A DNA stretch of 64,000 nucleotides from a virus (lineage: Duplodnaviria; Caudoviricetes). Position numbers and translations under genes: made by a program. This document shows, piece by piece, positions 2,863 through 10,525 of this stretch. Location of the stretch: IMG/VR virus record IMGVR_UViG_3300037067_015039, positions 32,001 through 96,000 of that record. The stretch is one strand, 5' to 3'. The notes under the pieces were generated by a model. It was not told the DNA's origin. It ran no database searches and worked only from the letters and a program-made list of their open reading frames with translations. Positions within the stretch are counted from its first letter, which is position 1. The number at the start of each line of letters is the position of its first letter.

Positions 2863-2938
2863 TGGTAGACCCAGGCAGATTCGAACTGCCGTCCGCGGAG
2901 CGAAAGTCCGCTATCCTAGACCGCTAGACGATGGGTCC
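2863..2938 (-). tRNA. tRNA-Glu(UUC)
   Basis: Full cloverleaf GGACCCA/UGGGUCU, anticodon loop CUUUCGC, T loop UUCGAAU, encoded ACCA. Confidence 0.93.
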
Positions 2939-2940
2939 CC

Positions 2941-3018
2941 GCCGGCAAATCCCACTAACAGGCGCGTACCAGATTCGCAATGTTCCGGTTTGCCACGCCT
3001 GCCGGAGGATCCGCCGGC
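2941..3018 (-). ncRNA. Long GC-rich hairpin immediately upstream of tRNA-Glu
   Basis: GCCGGC/GCCGGC, GGAUCC/GGAUUU, GGCAGGCGUG/CGCGCCUGUU, ACCGGA/UCUGGU nested pairings. Confidence 0.4.
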
Positions 3019-3031
3019 CCATAAAACATTT

Positions 3032-3469
3032 TTAATAAACAGGCATTATTGGGACATTCAATCCTCCAGCCTGACATATCTGAACAAATTCATTCCACTT
3101 CTGTTTTACTTCCTCTGGATGAGCTATCATCCAGGCGATAAGAACTAAGCTAGATAATCCCAAGCTTCCTTTAATGAAATTCTTAAAACTAGATAATAGA
3201 CCTTCACCTCCTCCTGGAAGTTCGCTGCCGGCAGGCCATGTGAACGGAGCCATAATGCCTGGGATTATAGGATCAAATGCTCCGGCTAGATAAGCGGCAT
3301 GAGGTTCCTGTTGTTCAGGAATTTCGCAAGTACCATCATGGAGGCATTGGCCTACTGTGAATGGTATCTCTCCAGCCGAATACATATCGTCAATCCAATC
3401 GGCTTTCGCTGTCGTGGGAACAATAACCAACAAAATGATGCTCACAATCAGACACAAAAGATTTTTCAT
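3032..3469 (-). CDS. Secreted/membrane hypothetical protein
   Basis: Signal peptide (AKA cleavage-like) and C-terminal hydrophobic helix; GGAG RBS. Confidence 0.7.
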   Translation of the reverse strand: MKNLLCLIVSIILLVIVPTTAKADWIDDMYSAGEIPFTVGQCLHDGTCEIPEQQEPHAAYLAGAFDPIIPGIMAPFTWPAGSELPGGGEGLLSSFKNFIKGSLGLSSLVLIAWMIAHPEEVKQKWNEFVQICQAGGLNVPIMPVY

Positions 3470-3512
3470 AAAAACTCTCCAGGAAAATTGTTTACTTCTA
3501 CGGACCCACTCT

Positions 3513-3600
3513 TGGCGGAGGGTGAGAGACTCGAACTCCCATGCCGTTTACGGCGTCGGGTTTCAGGCCCGAGGCGATACCAGTTCCGCTACAACCCTCC
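3513..3600 (-). tRNA. tRNA-Ser(UGA), atypical (C33)
   Basis: GGAGGGU/ACCCUCC-GCCA, long variable arm GCCGUAAACGGC, anticodon loop CCUGAAA. Confidence 0.85.
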
Positions 3601-3601
3601 G

Positions 3602-3802
3602 TTATTTTTCACTATCAATATCAGTCTTTTTGACAACTTCAGTTAAGCATACAATTGGGAATTCGTCATTCTGAGGCAGCATTCCCGAATTACACCAGAC
3701 GCATTTGGCGCGATCACCATTAACGATCCCTTCTATGGTCATAACGGGGCCGCCGCTGTTAAGTTGAACTGTTTTACCTACTTGTGCCACATTAGCTTCC
3801 AT
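3602..3802 (-). CDS. DUF2158/YodC-like protein
   Basis: VGKTVQLNSGGPVMTIE...CVW motif. Confidence 0.8.
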   Translation of the reverse strand: MEANVAQVGKTVQLNSGGPVMTIEGIVNGDRAKCVWCNSGMLPQNDEFPIVCLTEVVKKTDIDSEK

Positions 3803-3814
3803 TTAATTCCTCCT

Positions 3815-4132
3815 TTAAAGACCTTTTGTTAACCCGGGCTGCTTCATTTGGTCGGGATGTTCTTCGGTGAATTTATTAAATCGTTGGATAGCTTCGTCCA
3901 CCATCCTCATTTGATGATCGTTGCATCCATCTGCGATACAGATATCACGATAGGCTTGGATCCCTTTCACTGCATTCCAGTCTCGACCCCGGTAAATAAA
4001 AATAGGTTCTTCATCGAGAATAGGGATTCTGGTTGGAATTTTCACAATAGCAATACGAGTATTGATCGGAAGAGGTATTTCCGCTCCAGTGATTGTATCG
4101 ATTAATGCGACTTCATATTTCCCATCATTCAT
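3815..4132 (-). CDS. Hypothetical phage protein
   Basis: AAGGGA RBS before MNDGKY. Confidence 0.6.
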   Translation of the reverse strand: MNDGKYEVALIDTITGAEIPLPINTRIAIVKIPTRIPILDEEPIFIYRGRDWNAVKGIQAYRDICIADGCNDHQMRMVDEAIQRFNKFTEEHPDQMKQPGLTKGL

Positions 4133-4181
4133 AATTATTCCCTTCGTTGAACTACAGCCGTCTTCCTGGCCAGCGAAAATT

Positions 4182-4676
4182 TTATTCAATAACCAATTCC
4201 CTGAAATCATGCAGGGAAGATTGGTCTACAAACCAACATGGCGGCCGTCCATTCGGAGCCTCGTTTGATCCAGACTTCTTGCCTTCTTTCCCTAATATCC
4301 ATCCGATTATTTCGTAATTTCCGCATGATCCGATTACCAGAACGTACTTGTAGTCATCCCTGTCATTGGATCTTATAATAAGCCTCTTCCTCTTATTTCC
4401 CTTGTCGCTTACCCATCGGACCTCAATATCAGGGGGAACGTCAGCGCCACCCTTAAATTTGTCTACGCTAAAATCCCAATATCGATGAGATACCTTCGCT
4501 ACGGCTAGTTCGCAAATGGCACCCTCGATGTCAGTTGCCCATGTATCCATATCAACATCGTAGCCTCCAAACGGAGATACTCCCCTGGCAATTTGGTTTA
4601 ATTTTCTTCTGATGCCAATAATAGCCGCAGGCATCATCTCTCCGGGAGGTATTTTAATAGGAATTGATTTTGACAT
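4182..4676 (-). CDS. Hypothetical phage protein (possible nuclease-like fold)
   Basis: GAGG RBS; EGAICELAVAK...D...IEVRW pattern. Confidence 0.65.
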   Translation of the reverse strand: MSKSIPIKIPPGEMMPAAIIGIRRKLNQIARGVSPFGGYDVDMDTWATDIEGAICELAVAKVSHRYWDFSVDKFKGGADVPPDIEVRWVSDKGNKRKRLIIRSNDRDDYKYVLVIGSCGNYEIIGWILGKEGKKSGSNEAPNGRPPCWFVDQSSLHDFRELVIE

Positions 4677-4687
4677 TTTCCCTCATC

Positions 4688-4761
4688 TGGTTAGGGCGGC
4701 TGGATTCGAACCAGCGTACCCGGATCCAAAGTCCGGTGCCAGGCCGCTTGGCTACGCCCCA
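4688..4761 (-). tRNA. tRNA-Gln(UUG)
   Basis: UGGGGCG/CGCCCUA-ACCA, anticodon loop CUUUGGA. Confidence 0.93.
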
Positions 4762-4764
4762 ATA

Positions 4765-4983
4765 TTATTCATCTTCCCCTGAAGAAGCGACGTAAAAATT
4801 AGCTTCTCCTTTGGGACAGTTTTCTCTCATAAGAACGAGACAGCGCCTAACACTAGCTCCAGAGGTCCCAAAACTTTCCGTCTCATTCCCGCACCTAGAA
4901 CATGTAGCCGTGATACCATCAACTTCTATCCCCTCTTCATTTTCTAGGGTTGTCTCCTGGATGTCACATTCTACTTGAGCCAT
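4765..4983 (-). CDS. Small Cys-containing hypothetical protein
   Basis: GAGG RBS before MAQVEC; CSRC and C..C. Confidence 0.7.
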   Translation of the reverse strand: MAQVECDIQETTLENEEGIEVDGITATCSRCGNETESFGTSGASVRRCLVLMRENCPKGEANFYVASSGEDE

Positions 4984-5000
4984 AATTATCCTCGTCAATT

Positions 5001-5077
5001 TGGTAGGGGAGGCGAGATTTGAACTCGCGCATTTCATGATCCCAAATCATGAGCCTTCCCAACTTGGCCACTCCCCT
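5001..5077 (-). tRNA. tRNA-Pro(UGG)
   Basis: AGGGGAG/CUCCCCU-ACCA, anticodon arm CAUGA-UUUGGGA-UCAUG, T loop UUCAAAU. Confidence 0.9.
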
Positions 5078-5478: not shown

Positions 5479-5712
5479 CTAATCCTTTGGCGCGGCTGGC
5501 AGAATATAGAAATTGCGCCATTCCCCGCAATTTACACCAAACAAAATATCTTGGTTTTTCCAGACTTCCAGCCGGCCATTAATTTCACTAACTGTAATCT
5601 GGTTTGCATGCGCAATTTCCTGCGAACTACCGTCTCGGAAAAAAATCCGAACTGCCTTATTCCCTTTAATCTGATATTCCCTTAAAAGCTTCGATTCTGA
5701 GATTTCGCTCAT
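5479..5712 (-). CDS. Hypothetical protein
   Basis: GGAGG RBS before MSEISE. Confidence 0.6.
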   Translation of the reverse strand: MSEISESKLLREYQIKGNKAVRIFFRDGSSQEIAHANQITVSEINGRLEVWKNQDILFGVNCGEWRNFYILPAAPKD

Positions 5713-6004
5713 CCATTGCCGCCTCCACGGCTTTCTCGACGTCCGCAAGTTGTCCAAGACGACGAGACACTTCCACCTTATGCCAATGTTTAAAAGTAAC
5801 AGAATTGACCATACGTTCTAATGCTGCTTTTTTGTTTTGAGCTTGAGATCTGAATTCGCGTCCTTCGCCAAAAGCGCCAGACGCTATATGCGTGATGCGG
5901 ACTCCGTTTTGATTGGAGTTTTGATGCTGGCCGCCAGGGCCACCTGTGCAGAAGGTGGCAATTTTGAAATCCTTTTTTGTCAGACTAAATAAAAGTTTTC
6001 TCAT
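5666..6004 (-). CDS. Class I release-factor-like GGQ protein (ArfB/PrfH-type peptidyl-tRNA hydrolase domain)
   Basis: TGGPGGQHQN..NGVRITHIASG...RSQAQNKKAA; no codon-recognition domain. Confidence 0.88.
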   Translation of the reverse strand: MRKLLFSLTKKDFKIATFCTGGPGGQHQNSNQNGVRITHIASGAFGEGREFRSQAQNKKAALERMVNSVTFKHWHKVEVSRRLGQLADVEKAVEAAMDERNLRIEAFKGISD

Positions 6005-6069: not shown

Positions 6070-6384
6070 TTACTGACCCTTGAGTTGCTCTTCAAGACGA
6101 GCGATTTCGTCCTTGAGAGCTTGACGCTTCTCTTCGGCAGGCAGAAGAGCTTCCAACCGGGATTTCTTTTCACGAAGCATCTTTTGCAACCGATCAGCCT
6201 GGCTCAGGGAGATTTCCTTACGGATATCACGCATCTTAGCATCGAGCCATTCAGGCTGCTCGACATTGAGGGTTTTGAACTCTTCCTGAATCATACGTCC
6301 GACTGCGGACAGAGTTACAAGATCCTCCAGGGCAAGACCCTCGGTTTCGAACTTCCGAATCTCGTCTATCAAATACATCGACAT
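6070..6384 (-). CDS. Helical/coiled-coil protein following Ro60-like gene
   Basis: AAGGAGG RBS before MSMYL; heptad-rich C-terminus. Confidence 0.75.
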   Translation of the reverse strand: MSMYLIDEIRKFETEGLALEDLVTLSAVGRMIQEEFKTLNVEQPEWLDAKMRDIRKEISLSQADRLQKMLREKKSRLEALLPAEEKRQALKDEIARLEEQLKGQ

Positions 6385-6400
6385 AATCTGACCTCCTTTC

Positions 6401-7927
6401 TTAGTCTTCTTGATTGCCATCACTGAACGCCTCCGACAATTTCAAAAGTGGAGTTGCCATAATCTCATCCACCAAAGAGTAGGGATTGGTCCGCATGCTT
6501 TGGACCAGGTTTGGTATACTGTAATAATCGATATCAATACCGAGTTCAAAAACTTGCAAATCAAACCCGTTCTTCTTCATGCTCTCGGCAAATTCCTGAT
6601 CTCCCCATCCCCTGTTTTCAGCCCCACAACGATAGAAATAAACGGGGATATCCTTATCTGCAACCTGCAAAAGGCGCCGGTATTCATCGGAAAAAAATGG
6701 AGGAGAATTCTCCAGACCATCTGAGACGATCGCAATTCCGTCAATCTCAATATGACTCAACATAGCCGATCTCAATCCGCAACCAATGGAAGTCCCTCCA
6801 TTAGCATTGACATTCCGGGTCTTCTTCAAAATTTCTTCATAGCCAAACCCGGTGACATCAATCATTAACGGAGTCTGATCGAAGAAAGTAAGGGTAACGC
6901 TTCCCTTAACCATCTTCGCCAAAGTTCCCGCCACATGTCTGGAAGCCTCGATGCATTGAGACATTGATCCCGACTTATCACCGAGAATCAGCCAATTGCC
7001 CTCAATGCTCATATTCTGAATCTGCTTCTCCTGGACTGCATGGAGCTTGGCTTTCAGTTTTTCATCCCCAATCGCTTCCGCGGCGCGGGTAGTCTTCAAG
7101 ACGTTTTTCTTAGAAACAGCCGCCCGTTTAAGAGCATCCTCAAAAGCAGCACGAAGCGCCGGAACTTCTTTGACGCCCAATTTCTCCAGCATTTTAGTGC
7201 TGGTGACGACTTCTGTCGGGCTCATACGCTCAATAAGCGCAAGAACTAAATCAGGATCCTTTATTTTATTTCCGAGCGCCCCATGTGCTATCAAGAACGG
7301 GATCTTCCGTTCAAGAATGGTTCCCGCGGCTTCTTTTGAACTCATATTCCGCAGGTTTGCGACTGCCTCAAAAATGCTTCCTTTAGGAAGAGGAGATCTG
7401 ACCGGCTGCCGGCCTTCCGCTTTTGCTTTCAATCTTTCTTCCAGGGTGTGTCCAAAGAGAACGATATTCACCCGATCAGAGCCAGGTTTGACATCAGCTA
7501 GGGAATAGAGTTCCTTGAGAACCGCACGGTGCTGGATCGCGGTGAAATCCCATTTCTTACCTTCCTTCATGTGGAGGTAATCCGCAATCACCCTTTTGAG
7601 TTGGCGAATATGGCCAAGCGGCCGGACATCCAGAGCGAATCGATACGCCTTCAACAACTCCCGTGGATTCAGGAAAGTCAAATGAGCAAGACTGTTCTCG
7701 ACAAGTTCTTGCGGAAATCCAGGAACCGTTAAACTGACGATAGGCAATGCCGCCTTCGCATCCCTAATCTGGCCATGGGTACGATCCCAAGCAATAAGAT
7801 GAGCCAGAAAATCAGGTTCATTCTGAGCCGCAAGCTGTCCTATTGCGAGGTATTCACGGAGTTTCCCATGAGGAGATTTCGTGAGTTCTGAGATAATTTG
7901 GTTCTTGGTTACTTTGACCTTTTCCAT
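6401..7927 (-). CDS. Ro60/TROVE-like RNA-binding protein (helical ring + C-terminal vWA)
   Basis: 508 aa; N-terminal helical region (EPDFLAHLIAWDRTHGQIRD), vWA MIDAS DKSGS, GGTSIG, IVSDGLEN; adjacent tRNA-like RNA array. Confidence 0.75.
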   Translation of the reverse strand: MEKVKVTKNQIISELTKSPHGKLREYLAIGQLAAQNEPDFLAHLIAWDRTHGQIRDAKAALPIVSLTVPGFPQELVENSLAHLTFLNPRELLKAYRFALDVRPLGHIRQLKRVIADYLHMKEGKKWDFTAIQHRAVLKELYSLADVKPGSDRVNIVLFGHTLEERLKAKAEGRQPVRSPLPKGSIFEAVANLRNMSSKEAAGTILERKIPFLIAHGALGNKIKDPDLVLALIERMSPTEVVTSTKMLEKLGVKEVPALRAAFEDALKRAAVSKKNVLKTTRAAEAIGDEKLKAKLHAVQEKQIQNMSIEGNWLILGDKSGSMSQCIEASRHVAGTLAKMVKGSVTLTFFDQTPLMIDVTGFGYEEILKKTRNVNANGGTSIGCGLRSAMLSHIEIDGIAIVSDGLENSPPFFSDEYRRLLQVADKDIPVYFYRCGAENRGWGDQEFAESMKKNGFDLQVFELGIDIDYYSIPNLVQSMRTNPYSLVDEIMATPLLKLSEAFSDGNQED

Positions 7928-7950
7928 GACGGTTCTCCCTTTTAGTTAAA

Positions 7951-8030
7951 TCACTGGAAGTCGATTGGCTTGTTATGCCGAAAAGCAGGCATCATGTGTT
8001 CAAGACATGTAAGCTAATCAGTACCAGTGA
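7951..8030 (-). ncRNA. Scaffold RNA unit 1 (Y-RNA-like), payload = anticodon-like hairpin (CUUGAAC) + second hairpin
   Basis: UCACUGG-UACUG-AUUAGCUU-ACAUG...AAGCCAAU-CGACUU-CCAGUGA. Confidence 0.75.
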
Positions 8031-8037
8031 AACTTTA

Positions 8038-8129
8038 TTGCGGAAAGTCGGTCGGCTCTTGGTTGACTAAGGACTTTACATCCTCCGCCTATGTTTTTAA
8101 GGAACATGTAAGCCAATCAGTATCCGCAA
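8038..8129 (-). ncRNA. Scaffold RNA unit 2, payload = two 7-nt-loop hairpins
   Basis: UUGCGGA-UACUG-AUUGGCUU-ACAUG...GAGCCGAC-CGACUU-UCCGCAA. Confidence 0.75.
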
Positions 8130-8137
8130 AACTTTTC

Positions 8138-8213
8138 GTCCCATGTGCTATAGGCGCTGCGTCGTTTTAGCCCTGTTATGCCTAATTTGGGCCACTCAGA
8201 CAGCACATGGGAC
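8138..8213 (-). ncRNA. Pseudoknot-capable structured RNA A
   Basis: Perfect 12-bp closing stem; inner GGCCC/GGGCU; loop UAGGC complementary to downstream GCCUA. Confidence 0.55.
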
Positions 8214-8217
8214 TTCC

Positions 8218-8291
8218 GATGGTCCCCACTACGGCTCTTATAGCCCCAATCCTCGAACCTTGGGTGGGTGTTGCCGGGCTATCCGACCATC
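8218..8291 (-). ncRNA. Pseudoknot-capable structured RNA B
   Basis: GAUGGUC/GACCAUC closing stem; AUAGCCC/GGGCUAU; loop GGC and CCCAC complementary to downstream GCC and GUGGG. Confidence 0.55.
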
Positions 8292-8298
8292 TAAAATC

Positions 8299-8433
8299 TG
8301 GCTGCAAAGTCGATTCCGGAGTTGTCATGTTGCCCTACCATTGGGCGAATCCGGCATAAGGTGGAGCCGGATTCTGGATTCGAACCAGAACACTCATTGC
8401 TGAGTTCATGTAACCGTTTTCAGTGTGCAGCCA
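8299..8433 (-). ncRNA. Scaffold RNA unit 3, YrlA-like permuted tRNA payload (T arm, acceptor, D arm)
   Basis: T arm UCUGG-UUCGAAU-CCAGA, acceptor AUCCGGC-UCCA-CCUUAU-GCCGGAU, D arm GCCC-AAUGGUA-GGGC inside scaffold. Confidence 0.85.
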
Positions 8434-8445
8434 TATAATTTGGGC

Positions 8446-8500
8446 GGGTGTCATTCATCCCCCCGGGGAGATTCCCACATGGCCAATGCAGTAGACACCC
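8446..8500 (-). ncRNA. Degenerate scaffold unit
   Basis: GGGUGUC/GACACCC stem, UACUG and CAUG retained, CGACUU lost. Confidence 0.4.
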
Positions 8501-8510
8501 ATAATTTTTC

Positions 8511-8666
8511 TGGCCTTTAAGTCGATCAGCCTATTTTTCTGCGCGTTTACCATTTACGCCATTGCCCCATAATAAAGTTAAGGCGGGGCAAGAAGGATTC
8601 GAACCTCCAATTTCGGTTTCCCGAAAACAGGACCCTAAGTCATGTAAGCTATTCAGTAAAAGGCCA
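8511..8666 (-). ncRNA. Scaffold RNA unit 4, permuted tRNA-Leu(UAG)-like payload
   Basis: GA-CUUAGGG-UCCUG, long variable arm, T arm, UUGCCCC...GGGGCAA acceptor, Leu-type D arm, then CAG. Confidence 0.85.
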
Positions 8667-8687
8667 TAATCTTTTCAAAGATCTGGA

Positions 8688-8808
8688 AGAGTCTGCAACG
8701 CCTTGGAGCCTGTAATATAATTCCGCAACTAATTCAGGATCCACGTTAGTCCGAATCGCTTGCTCTGGTAGCCAAGAGGCAGTGTGTTTTTACCTGGACT
8801 CAGACTCT
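8688..8808 (-). ncRNA. 121-nt multibranch structured RNA
   Basis: AGAGUCUG/CAGACUCU closing stem enclosing AGUCC/GGACU and AACG-UGGA-CCUG/CAGG-UCCA-CGUU arms. Confidence 0.5.
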
Positions 8809-8900
8809 ATAATCCGGGGGGCTCTTGGGACGCTATCCACTTTGAGCCCCTATTCAAAATGCCCTCAATATGGGCGTTTAGTATTTTATGGCTGTAAGCC

Positions 8901-8931
8901 GTTTCAATCCACGCCTCACAACGGAAGCGAC
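8901..8931 (-). CRISPR. Solitary type I-C-like CRISPR repeat (not an array)
   Basis: GTCGCTTCCGTTGTGAGGCGTGGATTGAAAC: GTCGC start, 6-bp hairpin, GCGTGGATTGAAAC end typical of I-C repeats. Confidence 0.7.
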
Positions 8932-9052
8932 TTGGCTGTAAGTCGAATGAGGATCATTTGTGTTCGATACCCATCGACCCCCCCATACTATTTTTGTGGA
9001 GGGGGGCGCCTGCGAGGCGCTACGCATGTAGCCTCAAAACAGTAACAGCCAA
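8932..9052 (-). ncRNA. Scaffold RNA unit 5, degenerate permuted tRNA/tmRNA-like payload
   Basis: UUGGCUGU-UACUG...CUACAUG...GCGCC hairpin, CCCCCUCCA-linker-GGGGGGG, UCGAU/AUCGA...CGACUU-ACAGCCAA. Confidence 0.7.
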
Positions 9053-9059
9053 ACTCTAA

Positions 9060-9242
9060 TCCCTGTGGTCCGGACAACTCACTCCCAAGTACCCCGGATT
9101 CCCGGATTGCAAGATCATAGTCAGAAAACAAAATCGGCTTGCCCCTTGGAGTCGGTCTCTTGCCAATTTCTGCTATGTGTATCCACGGGCGCTAATCCCT
9201 TGCTGTGTTGGGGCGATGGCTCTCACGCCAATGCCACAGGGA
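9060..9242 (-). ncRNA. 183-nt structured RNA directly downstream of HNH gene
   Basis: UCCCUGUGG/CCACAGGGA closing stem; inner CAUAG-CAGAAA/UUUCUG-A-CUAUG and UUGGC/GCCGA. Confidence 0.55.
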
Positions 9243-9246
9243 AAAT

Positions 9247-9819
9247 CTACTTGATTACCCGCTTTGCGAGATAATCAACAAACTTATTAGGATCCATCCC
9301 GCGCTCTGCGCACCAGATAAACGGATCCTGCGAACCTTTATCCTTGTTGCATGATTTGCAGGACGTCAGATAGTTCGAAGTATTATTCTTCTTTTCGTCC
9401 ATTTCGAGAGGGATGAAGTGATCAATCGTCATAAGAGCTTCACCCATCTTTTTCCCGCAATACATGCATTTGAAACCATCGGCCGCCCAAACCTTTTGTT
9501 GGATCGAGCCTGATATTTCATATCTCACCTTTCGTTGGAAGATCTTGGGGTTTCCAACAAGTATTTCCGGATCATCAGAGCGGTGAATGAAATCAGACCA
9601 TTCTTCTACTGTAAGTTCTCTCCATTCGCTATAAGCACATATATCCATGCCATTATTATTGGCTCGGTTAAGAACTCCAGGAAGGGCCAGAATCATGCTC
9701 GAACCACCCCCTGTAAGAAGAATGCCACTAATCTTAACCAGTGACCCGATATCCCCATACATAACCGGGCGATTTCGCATTTCCATCAAATAAAACCGAT
9801 CACCGCTACTCTTGGCCAT
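9247..9819 (-). CDS. HNH endonuclease with unknown N-terminal domain, embedded in RNA array
   Basis: DGFKCMYCG...LMTIDHFIP...NYLTSCKSCNKDKG; GAGG RBS. Confidence 0.85.
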   Translation of the reverse strand: MAKSSGDRFYLMEMRNRPVMYGDIGSLVKISGILLTGGGSSMILALPGVLNRANNNGMDICAYSEWRELTVEEWSDFIHRSDDPEILVGNPKIFQRKVRYEISGSIQQKVWAADGFKCMYCGKKMGEALMTIDHFIPLEMDEKKNNTSNYLTSCKSCNKDKGSQDPFIWCAERGMDPNKFVDYLAKRVIK

Positions 9820-9836
9820 CTCTACCTCTTAAAAAC

Positions 9837-9968
9837 TGGCGTCAAGTCGATATGCTTTATTTCGCGCTCTAACCAGACTGAGCTACCCGGACGCATACGC
9901 GCCCGGGGTTGGATTCGAACCAACGACCTCGGCATTGGAATTGCATGTAAGCCTACCAGTGAACGCCA
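9837..9968 (-). ncRNA. Scaffold RNA unit 6, permuted tRNA payload with UCC (Gly) anticodon loop
   Basis: GCA-AUUCCAA-UGCCG-AGGUC, T arm, CCCGGGC-GCGUAUGC-GUCCGGG, D arm GCUC-AGUCUGGUUA-GAGC, G, CG. Confidence 0.85.
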
Positions 9969-9982
9969 TTACTATAATTGCT

Positions 9983-10109
9983 GTTCCCTGAAAGTCGCTC
10001 AGCTTTTTAAGGATTGAATAATCGGATTTGAACCGATCACACACTGATTTAAATTCAGTTGCTCTACCAAATGAGCTATATTCATGTACGCTGAACAGTG
10101 TCAGGGAAC
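9983..10109 (-). ncRNA. Scaffold RNA unit 7, whole tRNA-like payload with UUA anticodon
   Basis: GAAUA-UA-GCUC-AUUUGGUA-GAGC-A-ACUGA-AUUUAAA-UCAGU-GUGUG-AUCGG-UUCAAAU-CCGAU-UAUUCAA inside scaffold. Confidence 0.85.
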
Positions 10110-10117
10110 GTATTTTA

Positions 10118-10525
10118 TTAATTTTGCTGGATCAAACACCATAACCCTTTTTTTCGCTCGACTCTCGGGGTTTTCCTTTTCGACTCTTTATGAAGTGTAC
10201 TATAAAGAGTTTGAATTGGGTTTTTCCCCTGGACCTGATGACCTGATTCAGTCAATCGGTCCAAAAGAGCCGGCGTCCTAATAGGGCCGCCTGTGCTTAT
10301 AATTTCGATGGCCGCGCCTATGATGGATATTGGTCCCTCAACTTTCGAATCAGGTCCCGGCTGCGGTACTGGCGTTTCCTGTGGAGATCGTTCCACGTCT
10401 GAAAGGAAATAATCGATCTCGGAGAGTAAAGCGCCAATGCGATTCTTCTCTTTAATCAGTTCTTCCTTTAGGGAGACTGCCTTCTCTTTTATTGCTGCCA
10501 TTCCTGAATTCGTAAGTGTCATCAT
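10118..10525 (-). CDS. Coiled-coil + winged-HTH protein (HARE-HTH-like)
   Basis: AAIEII...GPIRTPALLDRL...GKNPIQTLYSTL...GLWCL pattern. Confidence 0.6.
   Translation of the reverse strand: MMTLTNSGMAAIKEKAVSLKEELIKEKNRIGALLSEIDYFLSDVERSPQETPVPQPGPDSKVEGPISIIGAAIEIISTGGPIRTPALLDRLTESGHQVQGKNPIQTLYSTLHKESKRKTPRVERKKGLWCLIQQN

What the first reader, a model, noticed from the sequence alone, without database searches (positions are those of the whole stretch)
8511..10109. Joining payload ends (ACAU|G ... N|AAA) exactly rebuilds tRNA helices: permuted or circular tRNAs
Seen: define each payload as the G after ACAU through the base before the A-run. Unit 4 (8641->8539): end CAG + start GA gives anticodon stem CAGGA/UCCUG with loop CU-UAG-GG, a complete Leu-type tRNA with long variable arm. 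Unit 6 (9944->9863): end CG + start GCA gives CGGCA/UGCCG with loop AU-UCC-AA. Unit 7 (10083->10009): end UU + start GAAUA gives a perfect 7-bp acceptor UUGAAUA/UAUUCAA. The break falls at three different tRNA positions (29/30, 28/29, 2/3), yet always at the same scaffold junctions, and the joined strand pairs better than the scaffold's own CAU. Units 3, 4 and 5 have NCC(A/U) plus an AU-rich linker ending UAU before G+1, like trailer+leader. Established: permuted tRNA genes in red algae and archaea mature through a circular intermediate at BHB motifs, then acceptor-loop removal. Inference: the scaffold is a non-BHB cut-and-ligate (back-splicing) signal giving circular RNAs or mature tRNAs; alternatively it is just a branch inserted at a coaxial nick. 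Unit 3 does not obey the rule cleanly.
Basis: partly seen in the sequence, partly recalled or inferred. Interest (0 to 1): 0.92.

Follow-up and report, generated by a model that had tools for sequence, protein, structure and literature searches.

The report
Phage Y-RNA array with tRNA heads
Seven small RNA genes beside a phage Ro60-like protein share one "handle", and several carry complete but rearranged tRNA copies whose helices re-form across that handle; this is best read as a branch on an intact Ro60-partner RNA, not as evidence that the RNAs are cut and re-joined into circles or working tRNAs.

Summary
The joined sequences score as well as the phage's own tRNAs. In related phage loci, 25 of 33 comparable units do the same, with 14 different helix sequences (0 of 10,000 shuffles reach this). 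Unit 7's UU|GAAUA pairing is real in the sequence but is not kept in any homologue, so it is probably chance.

The "scaffold" is a Y-RNA-type handle. The neighbouring 508-aa protein folds as Ro60, and unit 6 matches Rfam YrlA below threshold. Across relatives the same handle leaves the tRNA body at several places: the acceptor end, D loop, anticodon stem or variable region. About half of the payloads are not tRNAs at all, and many acceptor stems are sealed by tetraloops. No RNA ligase or splicing endonuclease was found in this phage, and no RtcB in ten relatives.

I favour an intact (or RNase P-nicked) Ro60 particle that displays a full tRNA mimic. Cut-and-ligate is unsupported but not excluded, because no RNA data exist. 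The scan has met this kind of array before in many other genomes. It is a new variant of a known kind.

The parts
9983..10109 (-). Unit 7: handle plus a normally ordered tRNA-like head (D, anticodon and T arms; anticodon UUA). The acceptor helix is closed by the handle's own U.
   Evidence: ARAGORN and Rfam tRNA hit at 10011/10013-10085, 57.1 bits. Handle motifs.
9833..9969 (-). Unit 6: handle plus a permuted class-I tRNA copy (anticodon hairpin, T arm, sealed acceptor, D arm). The anticodon stem is split 2+3 across the handle; loop AUUCCAA.
   Evidence: Rfam YrlA 42.7 bits, E 1.6e-7, below the gathering score of 69. Unique best circular join at 9944->9863, score 121.6.
9247..9819 (-). 190-aa HNH protein inside the array, with a conserved N-terminal domain of unknown fold.
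   Evidence: Pfam HNH 7.2e-10. Found in 31 of 69 related loci, mostly directly upstream of Ro60. Catalytic D-H, N and two CxxC motifs are invariant in 22 sequences.
8932..9052 (-). Unit 5: handle plus a degenerate tRNA-like head. It has a G7/C6U acceptor with CCA and a linker, flanked by two hairpins that replace the T and D arms.
   Evidence: same type in L004, L005, L007, L008, L013, L019, L028. No tRNA is found when it is circularised.
8511..8666 (-). Unit 4: handle plus a permuted class-II tRNA copy with a long variable arm. The anticodon stem is split 3+2 across the handle; loop CUUAGGG. The acceptor loop is GCCU plus an AU-rich linker ending UAU.
   Evidence: Unique best circular join at 8641->8539, score 126.7. 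Enforcing the cross-junction stem costs only 0.7 kcal/mol over the MFE.
8300..8432 (-). Unit 3: handle plus a YrlA-like head (self-contained GCAA-capped hairpin, T arm, acceptor with UCCA plus linker, D arm). There is no split anticodon stem.
   Evidence: Rfam YrlA partial hit, 20.4 bits. Layout. The joined form scores only 96.9 with a 6-nt loop.
8038..8129 (-). Unit 2: handle plus a short payload that is not a tRNA.
7952..8029 (-). Unit 1: handle plus a short payload. The handle's own CAUG forms the 5' strand of a 5-bp hairpin with the 7-nt loop CUUGAAC.
   Evidence: same hairpin type in L004, L007, L015.
6401..7927 (-). 508-aa divergent Ro60-like protein (helical ring domain plus vWA domain), directly downstream of the array.
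   Evidence: AlphaFold model, pLDDT 80.6. The Foldseek top 10 are all Ro60/TROVE structures over about 500 columns, probability 1.00. There is no Pfam TROVE hit, only a weak VWA_CoxE hit. More than 870 relatives.
6070..6423 (-). 117-aa helical protein directly downstream of Ro60; a conserved partner gene.
   Evidence: tblastn hit in 47 of 69 related loci, always just after Ro60.

Best explanation
This is an array of seven Y-RNA-type genes (YrlA/Yrn1 kind), probably co-transcribed with a divergent phage Ro60.

Each RNA has two modules. The first is a constant handle: basal stem, YACUG/CGACUU internal loop, a second stem, and a UACAU/A-rich loop. It most likely binds the Ro60 ring. The second is a variable head.

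In units 4 and 6 the head is a complete tRNA replica whose chain order is circularly permuted. The handle leaves the tRNA at a nick in the 5' strand of the anticodon stem. The upper and lower halves of that stem then stack on the continuous 3' strand, giving a three-way junction. The RNA works as this intact chimera. Where the acceptor loop carries NCCA plus a linker, it may work as a two-piece molecule after RNase P cutting and 3' trimming, as shown for M. smegmatis YrlA.

The tRNA-shaped head, anticodon loop included, serves as bait or tether for a tRNA-recognising factor. Candidates are a host tRNA enzyme, a host nuclease, or the conserved HNH or helical partner proteins.

Shown here: the handle and its covariation, the Ro60 fold, the cross-junction helix with covariation, the variable graft sites, and the absence of a ligase.

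Inferred: Ro60 binding, stability as a particle, RNase P opening, and the bait role.
For: - The neighbouring protein has the Ro60 fold.
- Unit 6 aligns end to end with Rfam YrlA, E 1.6e-7. Its anticodon hairpin appears as a 13-nt insertion into the model's short closing stem.
- The handle's basal stem has 6 of 6 pairs with double compensatory changes in 13 sequences. The second stem also co-varies, and UACAU+G is invariant in 67 units.
- The cross-junction anticodon stem is perfect in 24 of 42 candidates. It uses 13 distinct helices, split 2+3 in 17 units and 3+2 in 7. None of 10,000 shuffles reaches the observed count.
- The loops look like tRNA loops: U33 in 22 of 24, a purine at 37 in 24 of 24, and G36 followed by G37 in 13 of 14.
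- The same handle is grafted at the acceptor end or position 9 or below (14 units), the anticodon stem (10), the variable region (6) and the D loop (4). Another 33 of 67 payloads are not tRNAs.
- The D loop and the variable region are the places where natural tRNAs vary in length (established tRNA knowledge).
- Published precedent: YrlA is a crystallographically proven tRNA mimic with a closed acceptor (10.1101/312249). M. smegmatis YrlA is cut by RNase P and gains CCA, and both halves co-precipitate with Rsr (PMC4201824).
- NCCA opens 18 of 44 long acceptor loops, against about 1 expected by chance.
Against: - Nothing has been measured on RNA: no RNA run holds this stretch.
- Ro60 binding to this handle is inferred only from gene neighbourhood and analogy.
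- The published GNCGAA motif is absent, and Rfam YrlA is not reached at its gathering score.
- A decoy or tether does not obviously need so faithful a tRNA copy: a full 7-nt anticodon loop, the G36-G37 rule, and NCCA plus an RNase P-type leader. This fidelity would be expected if a working tRNA were the end product.
- RNAfold's minimum-energy fold does not choose the cross-junction stem, although enforcing it costs only 0.7 kcal/mol (unit 4) and 2.9 kcal/mol (unit 6).
Confidence: 0.68

Rival explanations
1. Cut-and-ligate maturation. An endonuclease cuts after UACAU and before the A-rich strand. A ligase, necessarily the host's (for example RtcB), joins the payload ends into a circle. RNase P and 3' trimming then open the acceptor loop to give a real tRNA.
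For: - The joined units 4 and 6 score as high as genuine tRNAs, and the best join falls exactly at the handle boundary.
- The tRNA parts on the two sides of the handle are exactly contiguous in many homologues.
- NCCA plus an AU-rich linker ending UAU before G+1 is enriched.
- The phage has only four ordinary tRNAs.
- An HNH nuclease is a conserved neighbour.
- Permuted pre-tRNAs of this order exist in algae and archaea (cited in 10.1101/312249).
Against: - No RtcB, Rnl2-type ligase, 2H ligase, splicing endonuclease or CCA enzyme was found in this phage. No RtcB was found in 10 related near-complete phage genomes.
- There is no bulge-helix-bulge motif and no known ribozyme.
- Half of the payloads on the same handle are not tRNAs.
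- 17 of the 24 best units have sealed acceptor loops of 3-8 nt without CCA.
- Units with a self-contained hairpin (unit 3, L028) or a variable-region graft would give 9-20 extra bases when joined.
- Anticodons differ freely between otherwise near-identical orthologous heads.
- By my reading against textbook rules, the identity elements do not fit the anticodon. Unit 6 lacks U73 and C2-G71 for Gly. Unit 4 has G73, not A73, for Leu.
Confidence: 0.07
2. Caged pre-tRNA. The handle is a paired leader and trailer. Ordinary RNase P and 3' processing remove it from normally ordered units such as unit 7, releasing a standard tRNA without any ligation. Ro60 binding would regulate that release.
For: - Several homologous normal-order units end in a 6-7-bp acceptor, a discriminator base and CCA directly at the handle boundary (L029, L066 units, L005 unit 1).
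- Unit 7 is called as a full tRNA at 57 bits.
Against: - Unit 7 has an A1:A72 mismatch and UCCU instead of NCCA.
- Other members of the same class have no acceptor stem at all, only a GNRA-capped 3-4-bp hairpin (L004, L008, L011, L019, L046).
- Anticodons at this array position vary (UUA, UGA, GAA, UUC, UGU, AAU), and here the anticodon would read a stop codon.
- This reading cannot explain the permuted units.
Confidence: 0.1
3. The same particle acting as a decoy. The Ro60-bound heads soak up or misdirect host factors that attack tRNA anticodon loops (anticodon nucleases, tRNA-modifying toxins). This would explain why full anticodon loops are kept while the triplets change quickly.
For: - The anticodon loop shape is conserved but the triplets are diverse.
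- Array content differs at about 3 of 7 positions from a relative whose Ro60 is 88% identical, as expected in an arms race.
- A solitary CRISPR-repeat-like element sits in the same array.
- In Salmonella the Ro60/YrlA operon responds to tRNA damage (PMC7790460, listed).
Against: This is purely inferential. No target is known and the host is unknown. Triplet turnover could equally mean that the triplet is unconstrained.
Confidence: 0.25

Closest known systems
YrlA-type bacterial and phage Y RNAs with Ro60/Rsr (Rfam RF02553; Chen et al. 2014, PMC4201824; Wang et al. 2018, bioRxiv 10.1101/312249, PDB 6CU1)
   Same: - Encoded next to Ro60 and on the same strand, often several per locus.
- A 5'/3' stem handle plus a tRNA-like domain in the order T arm, loop-closed acceptor, D arm.
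- The M. smegmatis member has a 7-bp acceptor that is cut by RNase P and gains CCA.
- Already described as resembling circularly permuted tRNA.
   Different: - Published YrlA is stated to lack an anticodon loop. Here a full 5-bp stem with a 7-nt loop forms across a three-way junction.
- The handle motifs differ: YACUG/CGACUU and UACAU instead of GNCGAA.
- The Rfam score is below the gathering threshold.
- The Ro60 is too divergent for the Pfam TROVE model.
- The arrays have seven units.
- The handle is also grafted at the D loop, variable region and acceptor end.
D. radiodurans Yrn1 (Y RNA with D, anticodon-like and T elements in normal order; PMC4201824)
   Same: Unit 7 and its homologues have the handle at the acceptor end and the D, anticodon and T arms in normal order.
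   Different: Yrn1 has a 6-nt 'anticodon' loop, no variable arm and a doubtful D arm. Unit 7 is a near-perfect cloverleaf (57 bits).
Circularly permuted tRNA genes of Cyanidioschyzon merolae and Thermofilum (Soma 2007, Chan 2011, as cited in 10.1101/312249)
   Same: - Gene order: 3' half, CCA or linker, 5' half.
- The termini pair with each other.
- The break can lie in the anticodon stem or other positions.
   Different: Those genes use a bulge-helix-bulge motif, the archaeal/eukaryal splicing endonuclease and a ligase, and a circular intermediate has been demonstrated. Here there is no such motif, no such enzymes in the phage, a Ro60 partner instead, and many non-tRNA payloads on the same termini.
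Thermus phage phiLo Ro60 with Yrl1/Yrl2 (PMC12135203; PDB 9KOP, 9L5Y)
   Same: A phage Ro60 with Y-like RNAs encoded upstream. It is the top structural match of the 508-aa protein.
   Different: The phiLo RNAs are stem-bulge-stem with a CGAA motif, and no tRNA-like head is reported.

Membership tests
YrlA (Rfam RF02553) | Encoded within about 4 kb of a Ro60 orthologue, on the same strand | tested here: met
   The array lies at 7952-10109 (minus strand) and the Ro60-fold gene at 6401-7927 (minus strand).
YrlA (Rfam RF02553) | tRNA-like domain in the order T arm, loop-closed acceptor stem, D arm, closed by a 5'/3' stem | tested here: met
   Units 3, 4 and 6. Units 1, 2, 5 and 7 do not have this layout.
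YrlA (Rfam RF02553) | Reaches the family's gathering score (69 bits) | tested here: not met
   The best hit is 42.7 bits (unit 6), then 20.4 bits (unit 3).
YrlA (Rfam RF02553) | GNCGAAN(0-1)G motif near the 5' end (proposed Rsr contact) | tested here: not met
   The conserved handle motifs are YACUG (5' strand) and CGACUU (3' strand). No conserved GNCGAA is present.
YrlA (Rfam RF02553) | Bound by Ro60/Rsr in vivo | not testable with these tools
   No RNA or binding data are available. The complex predictor takes proteins only.
Ro60 / TROVE protein family | Ring of HEAT-like repeats followed by a vWA domain | tested here: met
   The Foldseek top 10 are all Ro60/TROVE entries (9kop, 9nen, 9l5y, 1yvr, 2nvo), about 500 aligned columns, TM about 0.55.
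Ro60 / TROVE protein family | Sequence match to the Pfam TROVE model or to solved Ro60 sequences | tested here: not met
   Pfam gives only a weak VWA_CoxE hit. phmmer against PDB finds no Ro60. PHROG 850 'RNA-binding protein' scores only E 0.0026.
Permuted tRNA genes matured through a circular intermediate | 3' half, linker, 5' half order that gives a complete tRNA when the ends are joined | tested here: met
   Units 4 and 6. Not units 3 and 5.
Permuted tRNA genes matured through a circular intermediate | Bulge-helix-bulge motif at the junction (two 3-nt bulges separated by 4 bp) | tested here: not met
   The two would-be cut sites face each other at the mouth of a three-way junction. The adjoining handle is a U-A pair, a 3x3 internal loop (ACA opposite A-rich), another U-A pair, then a 7-8-bp stem.
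Permuted tRNA genes matured through a circular intermediate | Splicing endonuclease and RNA ligase available | tested here: not met
   None was found in the phage. No RtcB was found in 10 related phages. The host is unknown, so a host RtcB cannot be excluded. The Rnl1 search was uninformative because its control was silent.
Permuted tRNA genes matured through a circular intermediate | Circular RNA intermediate or mature joined tRNA detected | not testable with these tools
   No RNA run is listed for this stretch.
Ordinary tRNA gene | Contiguous cloverleaf with a free 7-bp acceptor end | tested here: inconclusive
   Only unit 7 is contiguous (57.1 bits). It has an A1:A72 mismatch, no CCA, and both ends run into the handle.

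The most novel reading that the evidence does not exclude
The Ro60-type handle is a non-BHB excision signal. After cutting at UACAU|G and before the A-rich strand, a host ligase such as RtcB joins the ends. The phage would then make circular RNAs or real tRNAs from permuted genes. This would be the first permuted-tRNA maturation pathway in the bacterial/phage world, with Ro60 as its platform.
Probability: 0.07. Interest if true: 0.92.

Novelty: new variant of a known kind. Interest (0 to 1): 0.58.

Why it matters
What the tRNA-like module of bacterial Y RNAs does has been open since 2014. This phage family offers a natural experiment with four useful features:
- One handle is grafted at four different tRNA positions.
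- Full anticodon arms are kept by covariation.
- The acceptor ends come in two forms, "openable" (NCCA plus linker) and "sealed".
- The Ro60, HNH and helical-protein gene trio is conserved.

These features make concrete hypotheses testable: tRNA bait for a host factor, RNase P-opened two-piece mimics, or true maturation. They also show that the published YrlA model, which has no anticodon loop, is incomplete. If the heads act as decoys for tRNA-directed defence, this would be a new class of phage counter-defence RNA.

Tried and rejected
- RNA evidence: no RNA holder is listed for 7900-10150. Only DNA metagenome contigs hold it, so I did not lay reads.
- Known ribozymes or other RNA families in 7700-10300: none at E up to 10 apart from tRNA and YrlA.
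- Sequence-level identification of Ro60 failed. Only the fold search worked.
- Unbiased seam scan around every T arm: it recovers ACAU|G as the best seam for most anticodon-split units. It is noisy because of tandem ordinary tRNAs and window-edge solutions, and it sometimes prefers a seam one base off. I replaced it with the direct pairing count.
- MAFFT plus RNAalifold on short-payload units recovered only the basal stem. I counted the second stem by anchoring on the motifs.
- Thermodynamic folding alone does not pick the cross-junction stem. Enforcing it costs 0.7 and 2.9 kcal/mol. My first constraint for unit 4 was misplaced and was redone.
- HNH protein: the AlphaFold model has a poor N-terminal domain (pLDDT below 50 for residues 1-28). 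Foldseek finds only generic HNH (Cas9 HNH domain) and PADLOC only generic PtuB-like HNH. There is no clue to a substrate.
- Rnl1 family search: the control genomes were silent, so the result is uninformative.
- Rejected, units as decayed tRNA pseudogenes: the covariation in both handle and heads argues against it.
- Rejected, unit 7's UU|GAAUA as part of the rule: it is not conserved in the 7 comparable homologues.
Full report
WHAT IS THERE. The window is part of a 109-kb phage record. On the minus strand, from about 10109 to 7952, lie seven units with one architecture. In order, each unit has a basal stem, YACUG, a second stem of 7-8 bp, UACAU followed by G, a payload of 40-120 nt, an A-rich strand, the partner of the second stem, CGACUU, and the partner of the basal stem. 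Directly downstream is a 508-aa gene (6401-7927). A 190-aa HNH gene sits inside the array (9247-9819). No terminator-like site separates the units on that strand, so one long precursor is likely.

THE PROTEIN. Sequence methods do not name the 508-aa protein. Its AlphaFold model (pLDDT 80.6) matches Ro60/TROVE structures over its whole length. The ten best Foldseek hits are all Ro60, including the Thermus phage phiLo protein. It belongs to a large family of more than 870 relatives, mostly on phage contigs of about 100 kb. I fetched 69 related loci.

THE RNA FAMILY. Unit 6 aligns end to end with Rfam YrlA (42.7 bits, E 1.6e-7, below the gathering score of 69). In that alignment the 13 nt after UACAU are an insertion into the model's short closing stem. 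YrlA RNAs are the Ro60-bound Y RNAs of bacteria and mycobacteriophages. Their tRNA-like domain runs T arm, loop-closed acceptor, D arm (PMC4201824). The crystal-structure paper states that YrlA lacks an anticodon loop, resembles a circularly permuted tRNA and might conceivably be processed further (10.1101/312249).

CHECK OF THE OBSERVATION. I circularised each payload at all combinations of 7 start and 21 end offsets and scored them with ARAGORN.
These are as good as or better than the phage's four ordinary tRNAs, which score 105-122.
- In unit 4 the 5' strand of the anticodon stem is made of 3 nt from the payload's end plus 2 nt from its start. In unit 6 the split is 2 plus 3.
- Unit 3 gives a poor solution and unit 5 gives none.

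- Among 42 non-redundant class-I units in the related loci, 24 have a perfect 5-bp stem across the junction. They use 13 distinct helix sequences, split 2+3 in 17 units and 3+2 in 7.
- Restricting to 33 clean units, 25 have a fully complementary far end. Shuffling the far ends among units gives 11.9 on average, with a maximum of 22 in 10,000 shuffles. Counting distinct helices, 14 of 22 are complementary against 4.9 expected. Sliding the register by one base leaves 1-4.
- The class-II relatives of unit 4 co-vary in the same way.
- The loops are tRNA-like: 7 nt, U33 in 22 of 24, a purine at 37 in 24 of 24, and G37 after G36 in 13 of 14.
- The anticodon arm across the handle is therefore real and under selection.
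- Unit 7's claim fails this test. In all 7 normal-order homologues with an acceptor stem, the handle's own U pairs with the base after the acceptor's 3' strand. The joined ends add pairs only in this window.

WHAT THE COMPARISON SHOWS ABOUT THE MECHANISM. Of 67 units found with a strict handle pattern, 34 give a tRNA when circularised. The handle leaves them at four kinds of place (sequences):
- the acceptor end or position 9 or below: 14 units;
- the 5' strand of the anticodon stem: 10 units;
- the variable region: 6 units;
- the D loop just before G18-G19: 4 units.

The other 33 payloads are not tRNAs (20 short hairpins, 13 longer). A handle that carries any cargo and sits at helix ends or at the two length-variable tRNA loops fits a modular display platform. 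It does not fit a dedicated tRNA-splicing signal.

Several further points argue against obligatory ligation:
- Variable-region grafts would leave 9-20 extra bases after joining.
- Units with a self-contained hairpin (unit 3, L028) would gain extra bases between the D and anticodon arms.
- 17 of the 24 best units have acceptor loops of 3-8 nt without CCA.
- Anticodon triplets differ among nearly identical orthologous heads.

One point argues the other way. NCCA opens 18 of 44 long acceptor loops, against about 2% each by chance, and 13 of 44 end in UAU before G+1. This matches the M. smegmatis precedent of RNase P cutting and CCA addition on a Y RNA, both halves of which co-precipitate with Rsr.

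ENZYMES. I found no RtcB, Rnl2-type ligase, CCA-adding enzyme, splicing endonuclease or 2H ligase in the phage. The Rnl1 search was uninformative. There is no RtcB in ten related near-complete phage genomes. A host ligase cannot be excluded, because the host is unknown. The junction is not a bulge-helix-bulge, and no known ribozyme matches.

STRUCTURE. The basal stem has double compensatory changes at all six pairs, and the second stem co-varies. UACAU and the A-rich strand can form U-A, three non-canonical positions, then U-A. One or two A residues stay unpaired before the tRNA helix. This gives a three-way junction with the two anticodon-stem halves stacked. Enforcing that stem costs 0.7 kcal/mol (unit 4) and 2.9 kcal/mol (unit 6) over the minimum-energy fold.

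CONTEXT.
- The HNH protein is present in 31 of 69 loci and the 117-aa helical protein in 47 of 69. Both lie next to Ro60.
- The HNH catalytic and zinc-binding residues are invariant. Its N-terminal domain could not be assigned.
- No RNA data exist for this stretch.

VERDICT.
- Observation: confirmed for units 4 and 6, and general in the family. Not supported for unit 7.
- Interpretation: the permuted, complete tRNA copies are real. The back-splicing reading is unsupported, at about 7%.
- Literature: I found no description of anticodon arms formed across the handle, of multi-site grafts, or of such arrays.
- Earlier work in this scan: notes report the same kind of array in at least 96 other genomes, with similar conclusions.
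- Novelty: a new variant of a known kind.

Noticed in passing
window 8901-8931 (minus strand), directly after unit 5; L004 about 3755-3790: A 31-nt element resembles a solitary type I-C CRISPR repeat: a 6-bp stem followed by GUGGAUUGAAAC. It is followed by a second copy of the handle's 3' half. The 88% relative L004 keeps it with compensatory changes in the stem. It could be a phage solitary-repeat (RNA anti-CRISPR-like) element riding on the Y-RNA array. Earlier scan notes flagged it.
   Followed up: partly
window, all seven units (for example 8646-8642, 9949-9945): The invariant handle pentad UACAU is, from memory, the recognition sequence reported for MazF/EndoA toxins of Bacillus and Staphylococcus. 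This may be coincidence. I did not test it and the host is unknown.
   Followed up: no
window 9247-9819, 6401-7927, 6070-6423 (minus strand); loci L004-L072: A conserved gene trio: a 190-aa HNH nuclease, Ro60 and a 117-aa helical protein. The HNH gene is in 31 of 69 loci and the helical-protein gene in 47 of 69, both adjacent to Ro60. The HNH protein is therefore a probable partner rather than a stray homing endonuclease.
   Followed up: partly
window 5666-6004 (minus strand): A 112-aa protein that is little more than an RF-1/GGQ domain (Pfam 2.3e-15). It lies downstream of Ro60 and next to four ordinary tRNA genes (Glu, Ser, Gln, Pro at 2863-5077). It is found in 6 of the 69 loci.
   Followed up: no
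window 7997-8012 (unit 1); L004, L007, L015: In the unit nearest Ro60, the handle's own CAUG forms the 5' strand of a 5-bp hairpin with a conserved 7-nt loop (CUUGAAC, CUUUAAC). It looks like an isolated anticodon-arm-like hairpin without a tRNA body.
   Followed up: partly
window 8135-8300 (minus strand): The non-coding stretch between units 3 and 2 has no handle motifs but folds unusually well (z -2.65; 2 of 200 shuffles fold as well). The stretch 9050-9246 is closed by a 9-bp long-range stem but is not exceptional (z -1.16).
   Followed up: partly
window array compared with L004 (Ro60 88% identical): Array content turns over quickly. L004 has a D-loop-split unit and a variable-region-split unit with anticodon CAU where this window has units 3 and 2. 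Its first unit also lacks an acceptor stem.
   Followed up: partly
window 10011-10085 (minus strand): Unit 7's head carries the anticodon UUA, which would read the UAA stop codon. Homologous units at this array position carry UGA, GAA, UUC, UGU or AAU instead, so a conserved suppressor function is unlikely.
   Followed up: partly
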